Below are positions 31,680 through 39,345 of a stretch of 42,369 nucleotides of DNA, one piece after another. The stretch is from IMG/VR virus record IMGVR_UViG_3300045988_054763; one strand, given 5' to 3'. Positions within the stretch are counted from its first letter, which is position 1, and the number at the start of each line of letters is the position of its first letter. The translations under genes and the position numbers were made by a program. The notes under the pieces are model-generated. The model saw only the letters and a list, made by a program, of their open reading frames with translations, ran no database searches and was not told the DNA's origin. This DNA comes from a virus.

Positions 31680-32690
31680 TCAATTCTCCCGCTCTTCCCA
31701 TTCTGCGACCTCATCTAATGATTTAGGGATGGTATACCCCGCATCCTCAATCTTTTGTGCCAGTTTTTGATAATTTGTTGTGTTACCGTTTCGCATGCGA
31801 GAAAAGCCAGAAAGAGATTTTGGGAAGTCGTCGGGGAATTTAGGCTTGAACCAATAATAAATAATATGATTTAGATTCGGCTCATTGATCGGATTGTAAG
31901 ACTTTTCAACACGTTCTAACCAAAGTCTATAATTTTTCTTTTCTTCTTCCGTTCGGTCATCACGAAACGGTCGTTTGCTATACAGAGATGGACTAATGCA
32001 TTTGAAAGACGGCTCGGAAACACCATCAATATAGGCAAATATCCCAAGGGCACATTGAAAATGAAAATCATCTGGGAACTTTGGGAACTTCCAACTTTTC
32101 CCAGATAAGCTATATATTCGTCTCCGGTACTTCGCGCAAATTTCACAGCACGCGCTTGAATCGCCAACCTCTACTAAATCAGTTTTAAGTCTTTTACACG
32201 ATTCAAGCGTTCTTGCAAATGCGTCTTTTGCATAGTTTTCCGGAGATTCTGTATGGGCATCTATCCAGTCTTTCCACTCTTTTGCTTTTTTGAATCGCCC
32301 TAACTCAATGTAATAGTTGACGACCCTATAAAAGTCTTTTCGCTCCCACCCAAGAGTGGAATATGTCATCAACTGGCAAGATTTTTCAAGGCAAGCCATT
32401 GATAGCTGGTAATCTCCGGTATTCCACAGAAAACCAGCGTGCATTCTCAACACATATTCAAGATATCCTGTTGGGCCTAACTCTTTTGAAGGTGGTACAT
32501 TGCGTACTTTTGTATAGTCAGGAATGGCGATAGAATAAATCGATTGCTTATCGGTCAAATCGTATTTTATTCCATCAGACACTATATCAGTCGCCGCGTT
32601 GATCTTATCGCGCACGTCGTAATACGATTGATTTGGTTCCGGAAACAACTCCACAACGCGGCCGTGCTCAAAATATACGGTAATTGGCAT
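31680..32690 (-). CDS. Orphan 336-aa protein, AT-rich moron in the lysogeny module
   Basis: A long clean ORF with its own AT-rich upstream region (tataat, RBS taggtga) and terminator. I recognise no family. It has a TPR-like helix pair (FYRVVNYYIELGRFKKAKEW) and a Cys/His cluster (SSACCEICAKY...HFQC). Confidence 0.7.
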   Translation of the reverse strand: MPITVYFEHGRVVELFPEPNQSYYDVRDKINAATDIVSDGIKYDLTDKQSIYSIAIPDYTKVRNVPPSKELGPTGYLEYVLRMHAGFLWNTGDYQLSMACLEKSCQLMTYSTLGWERKDFYRVVNYYIELGRFKKAKEWKDWIDAHTESPENYAKDAFARTLESCKRLKTDLVEVGDSSACCEICAKYRRRIYSLSGKSWKFPKFPDDFHFQCALGIFAYIDGVSEPSFKCISPSLYSKRPFRDDRTEEEKKNYRLWLERVEKSYNPINEPNLNHIIYYWFKPKFPDDFPKSLSGFSRMRNGNTTNYQKLAQKIEDAGYTIPKSLDEVAEWEEREN

Positions 32691-32848: not shown

Positions 32849-33214
32849 TTACTCCCCAGCAACTTGACCTTTTTCGATCTGCTGCGCAACAGATAGTAGA
32901 GCAGCGGCAAGGTCAGGATTTGATTCGCAAATCCGAATGAGCTTTTGAATATCTTCGGGCAATTCAGAAATGAGCGCTTCACCATCGGTGGGGCGCTCTT
33001 TTTTTGCGGCTTTATCGGCTACAGAATAAGAAATTGAAATCCCCAAATATTCTTCAATAGTTTTAATATTAGCAGCAGAGGGGAAATAGATGTTATTTCT
33101 CCACTGTGAAAATGTTGCGCTTGATATTTTTGTTGCAGCATAAAATTCCGCCTTTTTTATATGTCGAGCAACGAGCTCGCGTTCGACGATATCAACAAGC
33201 GTAGGACCGTCCAA
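32849..33214 (-). CDS. CI-like repressor (XRE HTH)
   Basis: HIKKAEFYAATKISSATFSQWRNNIYFPSAANIKTIEEYLGISISY, divergent from the cro-like gene. Probable TTG start at 33214 after aagggagg. The upstream part of the ORF is occupied by a + strand promoter. Confidence 0.65.
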   Translation of the reverse strand: MDGPTLVDIVERELVARHIKKAEFYAATKISSATFSQWRNNIYFPSAANIKTIEEYLGISISYSVADKAAKKERPTDGEALISELPEDIQKLIRICESNPDLAAALLSVAQQIEKGQVAGE

Positions 33215-33271
33215 AATATTAAGCCTCCCTTTGTACAAACCGCCGAAACTGCACAAAATGCAAAGTTCAAC

Positions 33272-33300
33272 TTGACATATTAAGCTGAGCTTAGTATAAT
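33272..33300 (+). promoter_or_regulatory. Early rightward promoter (consensus)
   Basis: TTGACA (33272-77), a 17-nt spacer, then TATAAT (33295-300). Confidence 0.7.
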
Positions 33301-33434
33301 GCGAGCATAGGGCAATAAAAAGCAAGCCCCCTTGATACTTAGCGGACTGTCGAAATTATTAGTTTGTTGGCACTTCTTATAATATCACGGTTCGCTAAGT
33401 TGTCAAGCAAAACTTAGTATTTGGAGGTGAAAAT

Positions 33435-33626
33435 ATGAGTTTTCGAAGCGCTCGTCATAAAGCTGGATTCAGCGTCCAGCAAGTAGCGGACGCGCTGAAA
33501 ATCTCCGACGTAGCCGTGTATTACTGGGAGACCGGTCAGCAGGCCCCCCGCGCAAGCCGTCTGCCGGAGGTCGCCGCGCTCTACGGCTGCACGGTGGACG
33601 AGCTTTTGAAGCCTGATGAAAAGTAA
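33435..33626 (+). CDS. Cro-like XRE HTH protein
   Basis: GFSVQQVADALKISDVAVYYWETGQQAPRASRLPEVAALYGCTVDELL. RBS ggaggtg. Confidence 0.75.
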   Translation: MSFRSARHKAGFSVQQVADALKISDVAVYYWETGQQAPRASRLPEVAALYGCTVDELLKPDEK

Positions 33627-33643: not shown

Positions 33644-34087
33644 ATGATTTTTGCAGCATGGAAAAGCGGCTGCCGCATTTCCGCCGACGCGCAAAAGGTC
33701 GCTGACGAAATCTTGGCAATCGGCAGCTCCGCAACGACCGCCCAAATCCTCGACAAGGCGAGGGACGAGCAGACGGAACTGCACAAGTGCTTTGATTGGA
33801 ACGATGCAGAAGCCGCCGAGAAGTGGCGTTTGCAGCAGGCGCGGCACATCGTTTGTAACCTGGTTATCAAGGAGAAGAGCGATACACCCCGCCCCGAGGT
33901 TCGCGTGTTCTTTAAGACAGACACGGATAGCGGCTATAAGCCGACCGTCCTTATCATGCAGGATAAGGACGAATATCGGAAACTGCTCGACCTCGCTTTA
34001 GCGGAGCTGAACAGTTTCAAGGCGAAGTACAAAACACTGGTGGAGCTTGACGGCGTGTTTGACGCCATCGACAAGGTAGCCGGATAG
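33644..34087 (+). CDS. Hypothetical early protein
   Basis: ORF of 147 aa with an RBS (aaggaggaaggagg). Confidence 0.55.
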   Translation: MIFAAWKSGCRISADAQKVADEILAIGSSATTAQILDKARDEQTELHKCFDWNDAEAAEKWRLQQARHIVCNLVIKEKSDTPRPEVRVFFKTDTDSGYKPTVLIMQDKDEYRKLLDLALAELNSFKAKYKTLVELDGVFDAIDKVAG

Positions 34088-34094
34088 CAAAACG

Positions 34095-34403
34095 GCGGTA
34101 AGCGGAAACAGGGGCGCGTAGCTCCGAGTATAAAAAATAGCATGAGAAAATTAAGCTAACTATATTACGAAACAGCAAAATTCACTACAAAACATCACAC
34201 TACACGCTTCTGTTTCTGCTTACCGCAGACGATAGTACATGACCGCGCATAACAACAAATTACCCGACAGAACAAAACAACATCGTGCGCTTGCTGTGGC
34301 TTATGGCCGCAAAGAATTATTTAATACACACAACATTACTACAGAGAAGATTACTACAGAACAGCAAATGACAGTACAACGTAAGCCACAGCAAGCGCAC
34401 GAG
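34095..34403 (+). ncRNA. Structured leader or ncRNA: two long-stem hairpins with G-poor CA-rich loops
   Basis: Stem 1 pairs 34095-34111 with 34210-34226 (17 bp, one G-U). Stem 2 pairs 34283-34305 with 34380-34402 (23 bp, one U-G). The wobbles pair only in the + sense. Confidence 0.5.
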
Positions 34404-34423
34404 TATCAAGGAGGAAATGAAAG

Positions 34424-35059
34424 ATGAAAAAAGAGCGAATTATCGAAGTCCAGTCTTTAAAAATCGAACAGGCAACCATTTTGATCGAGGGCGACGGCGA
34501 CCTTGTGCTGAACAAGATGAATGCCCGCACCGTCCGAGAGCTGACCGCCGCCCGCGACGGCAAAAAGACCATCAAGGAAGTCCCCAACATTTGGGAGGAC
34601 ATCATCACGGCAATTCACTGGCGGGATGGCTACCCCGTGGAGGACACTTACCGCGATATGAACGAGGGAACCTTGCGCGATATGCTGACGAACAACGCGC
34701 CCTGCATTACGGGCTTTGGCTTGAAGAAGTCCTTCTGTCAAGCGGTCGTGCGAAACGAGATCGACACTTACGCGACGAAGTTTGACAACGCCATGAATGT
34801 TACGGCGCGGTTGGAACCCGTGAAATTCGTAGCACATTTTGTTGACAAAACGCTCATGTCTCCGAAGCGAGGCGCTCCGGTGTTGGTTTATATCAACCGT
34901 TTCTCCGGCTGGTCTTCCCAAGTCCATATCACCTACACCGAGAACGTCTACACGCTCGACCAGATCGTGAACATCATCAATATGGCAGGGTTTGGACTTG
35001 GCATCGGCTCTGGCCGTTCCAGTGGTTATGGCAGATACCATGTTGTCGGAGTTGAATAA
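34424..35059 (+). CDS. Protein with a RAMP/Cas6-like C-terminal glycine-rich loop; function unknown
   Basis: RBS aaggagg. The C-terminus ...TLDQIVNIINMAGFGLGIGSGRSSGYGRYHVVGVE* has the helix, G-rich loop and final strand layout of RAMP ferredoxin folds. Confidence 0.6.
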   Translation: MKKERIIEVQSLKIEQATILIEGDGDLVLNKMNARTVRELTAARDGKKTIKEVPNIWEDIITAIHWRDGYPVEDTYRDMNEGTLRDMLTNNAPCITGFGLKKSFCQAVVRNEIDTYATKFDNAMNVTARLEPVKFVAHFVDKTLMSPKRGAPVLVYINRFSGWSSQVHITYTENVYTLDQIVNIINMAGFGLGIGSGRSSGYGRYHVVGVE

Positions 35060-35165
35060 AAAATGCCCCGCCCAATGTTGCAGCATCGAGCGGGGCGGGT
35101 GGGACAAATCTTACCACAAGATATTGTGTCCGTGCTTATTGTAGCACGAGAGAAAGGAAAAGGCA

Positions 35166-38736: not shown

Positions 38737-39345
38737 ATGGCGGATATGACTTACATCAAGCTGTTTGTCGATTACTTAGACGCAATAGAGCCACTCGGTG
38801 ACGCTGAGAGGGGGAGGCTTTTCACTTCCTTGTTAGAATACGCAAGGACGGGCGAAGCCCCGCAGCTTGGCGGGAACGAACGGTTTCTTTTCCCTATGAT
38901 GAGGGCGCAAATCGACAGGGACAATGCTGCAATGGCGGGATTATCCGAGGCGCGAAGCAAGGCCGGGAAGATCGGAGCCGAGGCGAAACAAGCAAATGCA
39001 GGATTTGCCAAGCAAAACAAGCAAATGCCAAATTTGCCAAGCAAATCAAGCTATGACAAAGACAAAGACAAAGACAAAGACAAAGACAAAGACGAGAGTA
39101 TTACGCGCGCGAGGCGCTTTACCCCTCCCACTTTGGACGATGTTTTGGCTTATGTTCGGGAACGCGGTTCAGACGTAGACCCGCAACGGTTTCTTGATTT
39201 CTACGCATCCAAAGGCTGGATGGTAGGCAAGAATCCGATGAAGGACTGGAAAGCCGCCGTGCGAACATGGGAAAAGCGCGAGGATACGGGCAACCACTCC
39301 AATCCAACGCCTGGAAAAAATGCGTGGATGAAAGAATACCTGTGA
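38737..39345 (+). CDS. Replisome-organizer / DnaD-like replication protein
   Basis: N-terminus MTYIKLFVDYLDAIEPLGDAERGRLFTSLLEY and C-terminus VLAYVRERGSDVDPQRFLDFYASKGWMVGKNPMKDWKAAVRTWE. Confidence 0.6.
   Translation: MADMTYIKLFVDYLDAIEPLGDAERGRLFTSLLEYARTGEAPQLGGNERFLFPMMRAQIDRDNAAMAGLSEARSKAGKIGAEAKQANAGFAKQNKQMPNLPSKSSYDKDKDKDKDKDKDESITRARRFTPPTLDDVLAYVRERGSDVDPQRFLDFYASKGWMVGKNPMKDWKAAVRTWEKREDTGNHSNPTPGKNAWMKEYL
38988..39045. repeat. Two tandem 29-bp repeats, each with an internal inverted repeat (iteron-like)
   Basis: acaagcaaatgcaggatttgccaagcaaa / acaagcaaatgccaaatttgccaagcaaa, each with a GCAAAT-N5-ATTTGC core. Confidence 0.8.
39055..39093. repeat. Hexanucleotide microsatellite (GACAAA)6.5 encoding (DK)n
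   Basis: Read directly from the sequence: gacaaa six times plus gac. Confidence 0.95.

What the first reader, a model, noticed from the sequence alone, without database searches (positions are those of the whole stretch)
34424..35059. Early-operon protein with a RAMP (Cas6/Cas5/Cas7-type) glycine-rich loop
The 211-aa protein ends ...VLVYINRF-SGWSSQVHITYTE-NVYTLDQIVNIINMAGF-GLGIGSGRSSGYG-RYHVVGVE. By eye this reads as strand, strand, helix, G-rich loop and final strand. The loop matches the G-h-G-x(4-5)-G-[FY]-G pattern that defines RAMP ferredoxin-like RNA-binding proteins. There are no CRISPR repeats or other cas genes in the genome. A solitary phage RAMP-like protein directly behind a highly structured RNA leader suggests an RNA-processing or anti-CRISPR function. 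Examples would be sequestering or cleaving host crRNA, or processing a phage RNA decoy.
Basis: inference. Interest (0 to 1): 0.65.

Follow-up and report, generated by a model that had tools for sequence, protein, structure and literature searches.

The report
Phage solo-RAMP guide system, ACA-type
The flagged protein is a stand-alone relative of CRISPR backbone proteins, and together with the structured RNA in front of it and a linked small gene it most likely forms a phage-borne RNA-guided DNA-recognition system of the VIPR kind first reported in 2026, here using a different RNA repeat code.

Summary
ORF 34424-35059 encodes a 211-aa protein with a near-invariant C-terminal glycine-rich loop. 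Its AlphaFold model (pLDDT 87.7) matches CRISPR effector RAMP subunits, mostly Cas7-type, over its whole length (Foldseek E 1e-5, prob 1.0). No CRISPR array was found, and no cas family among the neighbouring genes scanned.

The anti-CRISPR/RNA-processing reading is not what the evidence favours. In 93 of 98 related phage and prophage loci (gut Clostridia) the gene follows a 147-aa partner gene and a 249-1097-nt non-coding gap. That gap is an array of 1-7 hairpins, with 24-38-bp stems closing 40-190-nt loops. Loops and linkers are 5-nt repeats, A-N-N-A-H (AC periodicity z up to 32).

This matches VIPR systems (two 2026 bioRxiv preprints): a solo RAMP polymerises on pentamer-repeat guide RNA, and the two variable bases read DNA while skipping one target base per repeat. 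One relative's guide spells the RAMP gene's own G-loop under exactly that rule, in frame (21/22; 2e-3 expected by chance).

It differs from described VIPRs in the fixed triplet (A-H-A, not GGY), two changed G-loop reader residues, stem-closed guide loops and an unrelated accessory gene. No target was verified for the window's own guides. Verdict: new variant of a known kind.

The parts
33644..34087 (+). p147, candidate accessory gene (vap-like by position only), 147 aa, mostly helical, function unknown
   Evidence: A homolog lies directly upstream of the array and RAMP gene in 93 of 98 family loci, down to about 40% identity; it lies downstream in 1 locus and is absent or truncated in 4. It hits phrog_15946 (unknown function). 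It has no Pfam hit and no similarity to SUSP1 vap1 by BLASTP or hhalign. The AF2 model is low confidence (pLDDT 62.8) and has no fold match.
34088..34423 (+). Non-coding guide-RNA array (candidate vrRNA array): two stem-closed loops plus one linker tract, sense strand about 40% A
   Evidence: No conserved ORF and an A-rich, G/T-poor sense strand in all loci. RNAfold z = -7.8. The hairpin-array architecture is present in every relative, with the number of units scaling with gap length. AC 5-nt periodicity in the window alone: 33 in-phase pairs against 8.1 expected, 0 of 1000 shuffles. Stem mismatches are G.U-type 388 against A.C-type 193, p = 4e-16, which favours pairing in the sense-strand RNA.
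34093..34121 (+). Hairpin 1, 5' arm
   Evidence: Pairs with 34200-34228; 27 of 29 positions paired counting G.U. The arm is conserved at 84% mean identity across 24 arrays of the window's clade.
34122..34199 (+). Hairpin 1 loop, 78 nt: candidate guide of about 15-16 pentamer units (in register from 34124), canonical in its 3' half (ATTAC GAAAC .. ACTAC AAAAC ATCAC)
   Evidence: Register parse. Loops in the clade are 62% identical, the same as the shuffled baseline of 57%, and 22 of 24 are distinct.
34200..34228 (+). Hairpin 1, 3' arm
   Evidence: 86% mean identity in the clade. The pentamer register is phase-locked to the 3' arm across 146 loops.
34229..34278 (+). Inter-hairpin linker with a 9-unit pentamer tract (34234-34278: AGTAC ATGAC CGCGC ATAAC AACAA ATTAC CCGAC AGAAC AAAAC), conserved among close relatives
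   Evidence: Linkers show the same 5-nt periodicity as loops (z 16-23).
34279..34305 (+). Hairpin 2, 5' arm (perfect 21-bp core 34283-34303)
34306..34379 (+). Hairpin 2 loop, 74 nt: candidate guide of about 15 units (in register from 34308)
   Evidence: This loop is identical in L002, while the hairpin-1 loops of the same two phages are unrelated.
34380..34406 (+). Hairpin 2, 3' arm (perfect core 34382-34402), ending 3 nt before the ribosome-binding site of the RAMP gene
34424..35059 (+). Solo RAMP (Vipr-like), 211 aa, Cas7/Csm3-like fold, G-loop at residues 188-206
   Evidence: AF2 pLDDT 87.7, pTM 0.81. Foldseek against PDB: all top 50 matches are RAMP subunits of CRISPR effector complexes, best E 1e-5, prob 1.0, TMq about 0.5. 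BFVD: a 56%-identical uncharacterised viral protein (TM 0.90) and a phage 'Cas system-associated RAMP superfamily protein'. hhalign to SUSP1 Vipr: 62 C-terminal columns, 31% identity, E 4.7e-4.
34976..35008 (+). Predicted target site, inside the window's RAMP gene, of a rival phage's guide (L051): ATC AAT ATG GCA GGG TTT GGA CTT GGC ATC GGC, 19 of 22 NN bases matched, with the skipped bases on wobble positions

Best explanation
Genes 33644-35059 form a three-part VIPR-like module in the early operon of a temperate phage of gut Clostridia. The parts are a small accessory protein (p147), a non-coding array encoding guide RNAs, and a solo Cas7-like RAMP.

Inferred mechanism, by analogy with the VIPR systems characterised in two 2026 preprints: the array is transcribed with the early operon, and its long stems define each unit. 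RAMP protomers polymerise one per pentamer along the single-stranded A-N-N-A-H repeats. Each protomer sequesters the fixed A-H-A triplet through its G-loop, thumb and helix-1, and exposes the two variable bases. The exposed dinucleotides pair with double-stranded DNA of a competing phage or prophage while skipping one target base per repeat. NN therefore reads codon positions 1-2 and ignores the wobble position. The bound filament represses transcription of the target.

Shown here: the RAMP fold; the conserved three-part architecture; pairing on the sense-strand RNA; the pentamer periodicity and its consensus; constant stems with unrelated loops; and one guide-target pair that obeys the 1-nt-skip, wobble-aligned rule.

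Inferred, not shown: that the RAMP binds this RNA; filament formation; DNA rather than RNA as the target; repression as the outcome; the role of p147; and how the units are processed.
For: (1) Fold: the AF2 model is confident. Its top 50 PDB matches are all RAMP subunits of CRISPR effector complexes, mostly Cas7-type, aligned over the whole protein.

(2) Context: the module sits after the repressor/cro pair in a phage. Relatives are found in 80 IMG/VR contigs and 18 gut Clostridia MAG loci. No CRISPR arrays occur in 1.16 Mb of family loci.

(3) Architecture: p147, a gap and the RAMP gene are conserved in 93 of 98 loci. The gap is always a hairpin array whose unit number scales with its length.

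(4) RNA: G.U-type mismatches exceed A.C-type 388 to 193.

(5) Pentamers: AC periodicity is about 4x expected at lags 5, 10, 15 and 20, z 17-32, and there is no 5-nt periodicity in the stems. It replicates in 14 independent genome loci (z 13-15) and in the window alone. The cross-validated consensus is A .79 / N / N / A .75 / H, with G largely confined to the NN positions. Tracts run 9-19 units.

(6) The same 3-fixed + 2-variable pentamer logic, solo RAMP, single accessory gene and phage context define VIPR (10.64898/2026.04.26.720920; 10.64898/2026.04.26.720927). I verified the reference SUSP1 locus in KT454805.2.

(7) hhalign aligns the G-loops. Window S196-G197-R198 fall opposite SUSP1 D177-W178-R179, the readers of G1, G2 and Y3. 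The Arg is kept, and the two guanine readers are changed, in line with a different fixed triplet.

(8) Targeting rule: the loop of hairpin 5 in L051 decodes at skip 1 to INYAGFGLGI, the G-loop of the RAMP genes, in frame with the skips on wobble positions. It matches 21/22 in L036, 20/22 in L056-58 and 19/22 in the window. Skips 0, 2 and 3 give 16-17. 600 shuffles never exceed 19. The expected count for the whole experiment is 2e-3. The preprint also reports vrRNAs that target other VIPR systems.

(9) Stems are conserved (84-86%) while loops are at the shuffled baseline. This is a constant-handle, variable-guide pattern.
Against: No convincing target was found for any of the window's own three tracts. 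Exact 10-unit scans of IMG/VR found nothing. Seed hits were at chance frequency or lay in 65-71% GC phages that are unlikely competitors.

Only one guide of 51 has a verified-looking target, and all its matches are homologous sites, so they count as one event. A second candidate (L140) has its skips on codon position 2. No enrichment for skip 1 is visible in the bulk statistics of the small local database.

The window's tracts are degenerate; only about half of the units end in AC.

Sequence similarity to an experimentally validated Vipr is weak and C-terminal only (hhalign probability 32%). VIPR structures are absent from the PDB copy used, so the best structural matches are CRISPR Cas7 proteins.

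The fixed triplet differs from every consensus listed in the preprint, so the binding mode is extrapolated. p147 has no detectable relation to any described vap, and no confident fold. VIPR itself rests on two preprints from one laboratory.
Confidence: 0.78

Rival explanations
1. Cis-regulatory leader. The pentamer-repeat hairpins are simply the RAMP's binding sites in its own 5' UTR. Binding autoregulates translation or stability (TRAP-like or CsrA-sponge-like logic), with no trans target.
For: The array lies directly upstream of the RAMP gene. Hairpin 2 ends 3 nt before its ribosome-binding site. No target was verified for the window's own tracts. L051's guide also matches its own RAMP gene at 18/22.
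Against: A pure binding platform would not need two information-rich variable positions per unit. It would also not need loops that are unrelated between near-identical phages while the stems stay constant. Arrays expand to 7 units and 1 kb. The L051 guide matches a coding sequence only at skip 1 and in the wobble phase. In the reference VIPR system the equivalent RNAs act in trans.
Confidence: 0.08
2. RNA-targeting effector. The filament pairs with complementary RNA (phage or host transcripts) and silences or cleaves it, as Csm3/Cmr4 backbones do in type III CRISPR.
For: The closest solved folds are Csm3 and Cmr4, the RNA-cleaving backbone subunits. Invariant acidic residues follow strand 1 (G23, D24). 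The VIPR cryo-EM work shows that vrRNA can also pair with ssRNA.
Against: In VIPR, RNA targets gave mostly incomplete filaments, and silencing worked on either DNA strand. The catalytic-Asp equivalence with Csm3 was not tested here. The L051 target match is to the coding-sense strand. A guide with the same sense as the mRNA would pair with the template DNA strand and not with the mRNA.
Confidence: 0.08
3. Anti-CRISPR or decoy. The solo RAMP poisons host type I or III complexes or sequesters host crRNA, and the RNA acts as a decoy.
For: It is a phage-encoded RAMP in an early operon. RNA anti-CRISPRs that mimic CRISPR repeats exist in phages (PMC10651486, seen only as title and abstract).
Against: The RNA has no CRISPR-repeat-like element and no Rfam hit. 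Its repeats are 5-nt units unlike any crRNA handle. The architecture matches VIPR feature for feature. A decoy does not explain hypervariable NN positions or the skip-1 match to a phage gene. PADLOC shows no meaningful hit.
Confidence: 0.03

Closest known systems
VIPR systems (Vipr solo RAMP + vrRNA + vap), type II exemplified by Escherichia phage SUSP1 (bioRxiv 10.64898/2026.04.26.720920 and 10.64898/2026.04.26.720927)
   Same: A phage-encoded RAMP of about 20 kDa outside any CRISPR locus. A minimal two-gene locus. Flanking intergenic array RNAs made of 9-19 tandem pentamers with one fixed, two variable and two fixed positions. A structured element at the 3' side that sets the register. Homologous G-loop (AG-x3-G-[VI]-G-x2-R-x2-3-[FY]-G-R-[FY]). 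One guide that obeys the 1-nt-skip, wobble-aligned rule and targets another phage's vipr gene.
   Different: The fixed triplet is A-H-A (ANNAH), not GGY (YNNGG) nor the listed variants NNNGG, YNNNG and NNNNG. The G1 and G2 reader residues D177 and W178 are S and G here. Each guide tract is the loop of a 24-38-bp stem, where SUSP1 has a linear tract with a 3' pseudoknot tail. Further tracts lie in the linkers between hairpins. The array sits between the accessory gene and the RAMP gene. The accessory protein is unrelated to vap1. The hosts are gut Clostridia. Whether the preprint's seven types already include this clade could not be checked, because its supplementary tables are not held.
Type III CRISPR-Cas backbone subunits Csm3/Cmr4 (Cas7 family)
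   Same: Best structural matches over the full length (E 1e-5, TM about 0.5). RRM core, G-rich loop and similar size (about 200 aa). They polymerise along a guide RNA with a fixed nucleotide period and flip out bases at each step (established knowledge of the family).
   Different: There is no Cas10, Cas5, Cas11, Cas6 or CRISPR array nearby. The RNA period is 5 nt with 3 bases sequestered, where Csm3/Cmr4 have 6 nt with 1 flipped. The RNA is sequence-specific. Pfam RAMPs is below threshold. Catalytic residue equivalence was not established.
CRISPR arrays (repeat-spacer logic)
   Same: Constant elements (here the stem arms, 84-86% identical in the clade) bracket variable, information-carrying segments (loops at baseline identity). 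The number of units per array varies from 1 to 7. Individual units differ between otherwise near-identical phages.
   Different: The constant elements differ from unit to unit within one array and pair with each other across the variable segment. The variable segment is not a contiguous copy of a target; it is a 2-in-5 interleaved code. There are no Cas1/Cas2 genes and no known acquisition mechanism.
TRAP-type proteins that bind periodic RNA triplets (from general knowledge)
   Same: An oligomeric protein reads a short fixed triplet repeated with 2-3-nt spacers on single-stranded RNA.
   Different: Unrelated fold. TRAP acts in cis on a leader to control attenuation, and its spacers carry no information.

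Membership tests
VIPR (Vipr + vrRNA) | Stand-alone RAMP of about 20 kDa with RRM core, G-loop and thumb | tested here: met
   211 aa. Confident AF2 model. Full-length Foldseek matches to Cas7-family RAMPs. Invariant G-loop. The thumb and the single-RRM status are inferred from secondary structure and size; they were not inspected in 3D.
VIPR (Vipr + vrRNA) | Not part of a CRISPR-cas locus (no array, no further cas genes); minimal locus with one accessory gene | tested here: met
   No CRISPR-like array in the window or in 1.16 Mb of family loci; the flagged repeats are coding tandem repeats. Neighbours are phage lysogeny and replication genes. A single linked partner gene is present in 93 of 98 loci. 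The whole window was not exhaustively screened for cas genes.
VIPR (Vipr + vrRNA) | Adjacent intergenic RNA made of tandem pentanucleotide repeats with three conserved and two hypervariable positions, 9-16 units | tested here: met
   5-nt periodicity z 17-32, replicated. Cross-validated profile A/N/N/A/H. Tracts of 9-19 units. The window's own tracts are partly degenerate.
VIPR (Vipr + vrRNA) | Repeat consensus GGY/NN (YNNGG) or the listed variants NNNGG, YNNNG, NNNNG | tested here: not met
   The consensus is A-N-N-A-H. G is 7-9% at the three fixed positions. The geometry is the same and the bases are different.
VIPR (Vipr + vrRNA) | Structured, conserved element capping the 3' end of the repeat tract | tested here: inconclusive
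   Each loop tract is closed by a conserved 24-38-bp stem, and the register is phase-locked to the 3' arm (201 against about 100-118; 25% of loops end in ACA). This is a closing stem, not the described tail or pseudoknot. RNA ends are unknown without RNA-seq.
VIPR (Vipr + vrRNA) | NN dinucleotides specify a DNA target with one skipped base per repeat, skips falling on codon wobble positions | tested here: inconclusive
   One strong pair: the L051 guide against the RAMP-gene G-loop, 21/22, in frame, only at skip 1, with 2e-3 expected by chance. No verified target for the window's tracts and no bulk enrichment in the 2.3-Mb local database.
VIPR (Vipr + vrRNA) | Sequence homology to an experimentally characterised Vipr | tested here: inconclusive
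   hhalign of A1 against SUSP1 Vipr: 62 C-terminal columns, 31% identity, E 4.7e-4, probability 32%. tblastn against INPHARED phages finds nothing.
VIPR (Vipr + vrRNA) | Vipr-vrRNA ribonucleoprotein filament, one protomer per repeat; transcriptional silencing | not testable with these tools
   Needs pull-down with sRNA-seq, cryo-EM and reporter assays.
VIPR (Vipr + vrRNA) | Viral or proviral context | tested here: met
   The module sits in the early operon next to the repressor/cro pair of a 42-kb phage. Relatives occur in 80 IMG/VR contigs and in gut Clostridia MAG contigs, read as prophages.
CRISPR-Cas type III Cas7 (Csm3/Cmr4) | Encoded in a cas operon with Cas10, Cas5 and Cas11, next to a CRISPR array | tested here: not met
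CRISPR-Cas type III Cas7 (Csm3/Cmr4) | Cas7 RAMP fold | tested here: met
   (prob 1.0, E 1e-5 to 1e-3 for 42 chains).
CRISPR-Cas type III Cas7 (Csm3/Cmr4) | Passes the curated RAMP family threshold (Pfam PF03787) | tested here: not met
   14.5 bits against a 22.1 cutoff. The best of 36 members has E 0.0036.
CRISPR-Cas type III Cas7 (Csm3/Cmr4) | Catalytic Asp after strand 1 that cleaves target RNA at 6-nt intervals | not tested
   An invariant G23-D24 follows strand 1, but no residue-level structural superposition was available.
Cas6 endoribonuclease | Two tandem RRM/ferredoxin domains; cleaves within CRISPR repeats | tested here: not met
   At 211 aa the model shows one RRM-type core. No entry in the top 50 fold matches is titled as a Cas6 structure. 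There are no CRISPR repeats.
Anti-CRISPR protein or RNA (Acr/Racr) | Solitary CRISPR-repeat mimic, or a protein with demonstrated CRISPR inhibition | tested here: not met
   No repeat-like element and no Rfam family. Inhibition itself cannot be tested here.

The most novel reading that the evidence does not exclude
This is an undescribed VIPR lineage, in effect an eighth type, widespread in phages of gut Clostridia (over 2,300 RAMP sequences). It has its own RNA code, A-H-A/NN, read by a re-wired G-loop. Its guides are displayed as loops closed by long constant stems. Because near-identical phages carry unrelated loops between identical stems, and exchange individual loops independently, the stems may also serve as recombination handles. 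That would let guides be swapped as cassettes, a guide-renewal route functionally analogous to CRISPR repeats but without Cas1-Cas2.
Probability: 0.3. Interest if true: 0.85.

Novelty: new variant of a known kind. Interest (0 to 1): 0.68.

Why it matters
VIPR was reported only in 2026 as a minimal RNA-guided DNA-binding system (one small protein and one guide under 100 nt) and as a candidate ancestor of CRISPR RAMPs. All consensi named in that report are anchored on guanines.

A large clade that keeps the same 1+2+2 pentamer geometry but uses A-H-A would show that the fixed triplet and its protein readers co-evolve. Here two of the three base-reading G-loop residues are replaced. That gives a natural experiment on how the code is read. 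It also offers an orthogonal protein-RNA pair that could work beside GGY-type systems in one cell. Finally, it extends inter-phage RNA-guided conflict to abundant temperate phages of human and animal gut Clostridia.

The stem-closed guide loops and the constant-stem, variable-loop pattern bear on how guides are processed and renewed, which is an open question for VIPR. The anti-vipr guide suggests that these phages silence each other's VIPR genes at their most conserved codons.

Tried and rejected
(1) Sequence-only annotation led nowhere. Pfam, NCBIfam, PADLOC and PDB sequence searches gave only sub-threshold or irrelevant hits. PHROGs gave an 'unknown function' family. tblastn against INPHARED found nothing.

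(2) I considered a DNA-level reading of the inverted repeats (origin or cruciform). I rejected it because the stem mismatches are asymmetric G.U-type on the sense strand and the single-stranded parts have strong A>>T strand asymmetry.

(3) While interpreting the periodicity result I considered ACA-rich RNA as a MazF/ToxN-type decoy, an Hfq/CsrA sponge or a Rho site. I dropped these once the strict 5-nt, 3+2 periodicity and the RAMP linkage matched VIPR.

(4) Target searches for the window's and close relatives' guides found nothing exact. Three exact scans of 9-10 units of IMG/VR gave 0 hits, and the cleanest 11-unit guide of the L072 group gave 0 hits.

(5) Seed-and-extend produced three leads, all unproven:
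- L114: 27/32, about 0.01 after correction, but from a 65% GC phage.
- L136/L138: 20/20 in the N-terminus of what looks like a terminase large subunit (VCAYTFRDKT; by eye, no family search run). The hit count equals chance, the held-out score is 4/8, and the GC is 65-71%.
- L140: 23/24 for an L071 guide, but the skips fall on codon position 2 of the plausible gene and the GC differs.

(6) A metagenome scan for other arrays spelling A-G-F-G-L-G-I returned only the same phage plus two non-array chance hits.

(7) An unrestricted all-register scan of the arrays against RAMP and p147 genes gave only low-complexity noise apart from the L051 guide.

(8) p147: no Pfam hit, no similarity to vap1, a low-confidence model and no fold match.

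(9) My crude CRISPR-array screen flagged 14 loci. The periods (24, 27, 30, 54, 60 nt) are multiples of 3. The one example I checked, the most CRISPR-like (L058), is a 95%-identical coding tandem repeat.
Full report
**1. The observation**

The ORF at 34424-35059 (+) exists. The protein belongs to a large, wholly unannotated family: 2349 proteins at E<=1e-3 in the 5.8-billion-protein set, and 750 representatives at 50% clustering. In a 36-member alignment spanning 63-92% identity, the C-terminal AGFG-x-G-x-GSGR-x-S-x2-GRYH is invariant or nearly so.

Sequence libraries alone do not settle what it is. Pfam RAMPs (PF03787) scores 14.5 bits against a cutoff of 22.1, although 31 of 36 members give the same sub-threshold hit. 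PHROGs gives an unknown-function family. NCBIfam, PADLOC and PDB sequence searches give nothing useful.

**2. The fold**

An AlphaFold2 model built on the alignment is confident (mean pLDDT 87.7, pTM 0.81). All of its top 50 Foldseek matches in the PDB are RAMP subunits of CRISPR effector complexes. Judging by entry titles and chain sizes, most are Cas7-type backbone subunits: Csm3 from several type III-A complexes, Cmr4, type VII Cas7 and type IV Csf2. The best E-value is 1e-5, the probability is 1.0, TM is about 0.5, and about 212-250 aligned columns cover the whole protein, not only the G-loop. Among predicted viral structures, the model matches an uncharacterised 56%-identical protein (TM 0.90) and a phage protein named 'Cas system-associated RAMP superfamily protein'.

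**3. The surroundings**

The gene lies in the early operon of a temperate phage. Upstream are a divergent repressor (32849-33325, -), a cro-like HTH protein (33435-33626, +) and a 147-aa protein of unknown function (33644-34087, +; phrog_15946). Then come 336 non-coding bases and the RAMP gene. Downstream are a 3D-domain protein, NinB and SSB. There is no CRISPR-like array and no Rfam family in the window.

I fetched 80 IMG/VR loci and 18 loci from GTDB species genomes that encode relatives at 50-99% identity. The genome loci come from gut Clostridia MAGs: Lachnospiraceae, Oscillospiraceae, Blautia, Ruminococcus, Eisenbergiella and Faecalimonas.

In 93 of these 98 loci a homolog of the 147-aa protein lies upstream of the RAMP gene, separated from it by 249-1097 nt. 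In one locus it lies downstream. In the remaining four it is absent or the contig is cut. The linkage holds down to about 40% identity of p147.

**4. The gap is a structured RNA array**

In every locus the sense strand of the gap is A-rich (36-54% A), with A far above T and little G, whatever the overall GC. No sense-strand ORF is conserved. In the window the gap folds at -92.2 kcal/mol, z = -7.8. It contains two long-range stems, 34095-34121/34200-34226 and 34283-34303/34382-34402. The second is a perfect 21-bp helix. Each stem encloses 78 nt.

The same design recurs everywhere. Each gap holds 1-7 tandem hairpins with stems of 24-38 bp and loops of about 40-190 nt (mostly 55-90). Two units occupy about 330-410 nt and seven occupy 1003 nt.

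Stems defined by Watson-Crick pairs alone contain 388 G.U-type mismatches against 193 A.C-type (p = 4e-16). This asymmetry is expected if the sense-strand transcript is what pairs.

Within the window's own clade (24 distinct arrays) the stem arms are 84-86% identical. The loops are 59-62% identical, no better than shuffled loops (57%), and 22 of 24 hairpin-1 loops are different sequences of 57-107 nt. Loops also change independently: the window and L002 share the hairpin-2 loop but have unrelated hairpin-1 loops.

**5. The single-stranded parts are pentamer repeats**

In loops and in the linkers between hairpins, AC dinucleotides recur at lags 5, 10, 15 and 20 at about four times expectation (z = 17-32). 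The stems show no 5-nt periodicity. The signal replicates in the 14 usable genome loci (z = 13-15) and in the window's gap alone (33 in-phase pairs against 8.1 expected; 0 of 1000 shuffles).

A cross-validated profile, with the phase set on odd units and the composition read on 970 held-out even units, gives A 0.79 / N / N / A 0.75 / C 0.44, A 0.28, T 0.22, G 0.07. G is largely confined to the two variable positions, and a shuffled control is flat. The unit is thus A-N-N-A-H: a fixed A-H-A triplet alternating with two variable bases.

Tracts run 9-19 units. The register is locked to the 3' arm of the stem and not to the 5' arm.

In the window, the cleanest tract is the 9-unit linker at 34234-34278. 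The two loops read as about 15-16 units each, but only about half of their units are canonical.

**6. What this corresponds to**

A literature search found two 2026 bioRxiv preprints from one laboratory that describe VIPR systems. In these systems a phage-encoded solo RAMP (Vipr, about 20 kDa) has a single accessory gene (vap) and flanking arrays of roughly 100-nt vrRNAs. Each vrRNA is made of 9-16 YNNGG pentamers and capped by a structured 3' tail. Vipr polymerises one protomer per repeat and flips out and holds the GGY triplet. It presents the NN dinucleotides, which pair with DNA while skipping one target base per repeat. Natural targets are mostly coding sequences of competing phages with the skipped base on the wobble position, and some target other VIPR systems. 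The outcome is transcriptional repression.

I verified the reference locus directly in Escherichia phage SUSP1 (KT454805.2). It has a 195-aa gene with H17 and a ...GVGDWRPRFGRF G-loop, a 146-aa gene, and YNNGG tracts of 12, 16, 15 and 7 units in the flanking gaps.

A profile comparison aligns the C-terminal 62 residues of the two RAMPs (31% identity, E 4.7e-4, but probability only 32%). It places window S196-G197-R198 opposite SUSP1 D177-W178-R179, the residues reported to read G1, G2 and Y3. The Arg is retained and the two guanine readers are replaced, which fits a changed fixed triplet. p147 has no detectable similarity to SUSP1 vap1. Its model is of low confidence and has no fold match.

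**7. Testing the targeting rule**

I decoded all tracts of at least 9 units (51 distinct guides). I scanned 2.3 Mb of window plus fetched loci, with the arrays masked, under skip lengths 0-3 and with unit-shuffled controls. Bulk statistics show no enrichment for any rule, so the database is too small and too narrow to be informative.

There is one outlier, and it falls in the skip-1 class. The loop of hairpin 5 in phage L051 (AATAC CAAAC ATAAC AGCAC AGGGT ATTAT AGGAC ACTCA AGGAC AATAT AGAAC) matches 21 of 22 NN bases in L036. The match is inside L036's RAMP gene, at an offset of 552 from the start codon. NN therefore falls on codon positions 1-2 and every skipped base falls on a wobble position. 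The decoded peptide is INYAGFGLGI, the G-loop itself.

The same guide matches 20/22 in L056-58, 19/22 in about 40 other RAMP genes including the window's (34976-35008), and 18/22 in its own gene. The wobble bases differ freely among these genes.

With the database composition, the expected number of matches at 21/22 or better over the whole experiment is 2e-3. 600 unit-order shuffles of the guide never exceed 19. The real guide scores only 16-17 at skips 0, 2 and 3. All these matches are to homologous sites, so they count as a single guide-target event, but it behaves exactly as the published rule predicts.

**8. What could not be shown**

No target was established for the window's own guides. 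Exact scans of IMG/VR with 9-10 guide units found nothing. Seed searches gave hit counts at chance level. The best extensions were L114 (27/32), L136/L138 (20/20 in what looks like a terminase large subunit, by eye) and L140 (23/24 for an L071 guide). These lie in phages of 55-71% GC or have the skips off the wobble position, so I treat them as unproven.

A metagenome scan for other arrays spelling the G-loop motif recovered only the same phage. RNA ends, RAMP-RNA binding, filament formation and repression are inferred by analogy and cannot be tested with these tools.

**9. Comparison and membership**

The locus meets these VIPR features:
- a solo RAMP;
- no CRISPR context;
- a two-gene minimal locus;
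- phage context;
- adjacent pentamer-repeat RNA with three fixed and two variable positions, in tracts of the right length.

It fails one listed feature, the repeat consensus. The preprint names YNNGG, NNNGG, YNNNG and NNNNG, all anchored on G, whereas this clade uses A-N-N-A-H.

Three features are inconclusive: the 3' cap (here a closing stem), sequence homology to a validated Vipr, and the skip rule (one strong case).

It is not a CRISPR Cas7 in the operational sense, because there is no cas operon or array and Pfam is below threshold, although the fold is shared. I therefore file it as working like a VIPR and as a new variant of that kind.

Its distinctive points are the A-H-A code, the altered G-loop readers, the stem-closed guide loops with further tracts in the linkers, the gene order (accessory gene, array, RAMP) and an unrelated accessory protein. 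Whether the preprint's seven types already contain this clade cannot be decided, because its supplementary tables are not held. Its text mentions neither an ACA-type consensus nor hairpin-enclosed units nor Clostridia.

**10. Verdict**

The functional guess (anti-CRISPR or RNA processing) is not supported.

The best explanation is a VIPR-like RNA-guided DNA-recognition module used in conflict between phages (confidence 0.78 for the module as such). I hold the DNA-targeting and repression details with lower confidence, although I did not estimate that separately.

Interest is fairly high for a specialist. The kind is only months old in the literature, and this clade, abundant in gut phages, shows that the fixed part of the code and its protein readers can be exchanged wholesale.

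Noticed in passing
window 35065-35096: A GC-rich 13-bp hairpin lies directly after the RAMP stop codon. It is followed by a T-run only on the minus strand (GCCCCGC...GGCGGGGC ATTTTTTATT). It therefore looks like a terminator for antisense transcription running into the RAMP gene, not a terminator of the RAMP transcript.
   Followed up: no
L051 5845-5899 vs L051 RAMP gene (offset 564): The anti-G-loop guide also matches its own phage's RAMP gene at 18/22 (82%), just above the 80% threshold used in the preprint. Two of the mismatches fall in one NN (Leu instead of Tyr). This could be self-avoidance through a single codon, or autoregulation.
   Followed up: partly
L093 (RAMP 779-1375; p147 homolog 1629-2033); L001 and L087: There are exceptions to the gene order. 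In L093 the p147 homolog lies downstream of the RAMP gene. L001 and L087 have a RAMP gene with no detectable p147 homolog nearby.
   Followed up: no
window 34229-34278 and the same linker in L002, L007, L017, L021: The linker tract between the two hairpins is conserved among close relatives, while both loops are hypervariable. Decoded at skip 1 it reads V-C-A-Y-T-F-R-D-K-T. This matches 20/20 NN in the N-terminus of a terminase-large-subunit-like protein in two high-GC IMG/VR phages (L136, L138) that use different wobble bases. The hit count is at chance level and the hosts look wrong.
   Followed up: partly
window 38986-39093: Two adjacent tandem repeats (29 nt x 2.3 copies, then GACAAA x 6.5 copies) lie inside or next to ORF 38737-39345 (phrog_15768, unknown function), just downstream of SSB. 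They could be origin iterons or a coding repeat.
   Followed up: no
window 31680-32690 (-): The 336-aa gene occupies the position where an integrase would be expected, beside the repressor. It gives only a weak 'minor head protein' PHROG hit and a sub-threshold TPR hit, and no integrase family appeared among the hits listed.
   Followed up: no
L058 3875-4140 (also L056, L057): A 60-nt head-to-tail repeat (4.4 copies, 95% identical) encodes 20-aa leucine-rich-type repeats (LNLSGTGITALPDNLTVGGW) in a 259-aa protein about 2 kb upstream of the RAMP module. Other family loci carry coding repeats of 24-30 nt.
   Followed up: partly
L083 (Muribaculaceae MAG) and L093 (Prevotella MAG): Two family loci are binned to Bacteroidales, while all the others are Clostridia. 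L083 also has the shortest and most A-rich gap (249 nt, 54% A, one weak hairpin). This could be a binning artefact or a real host jump.
   Followed up: no
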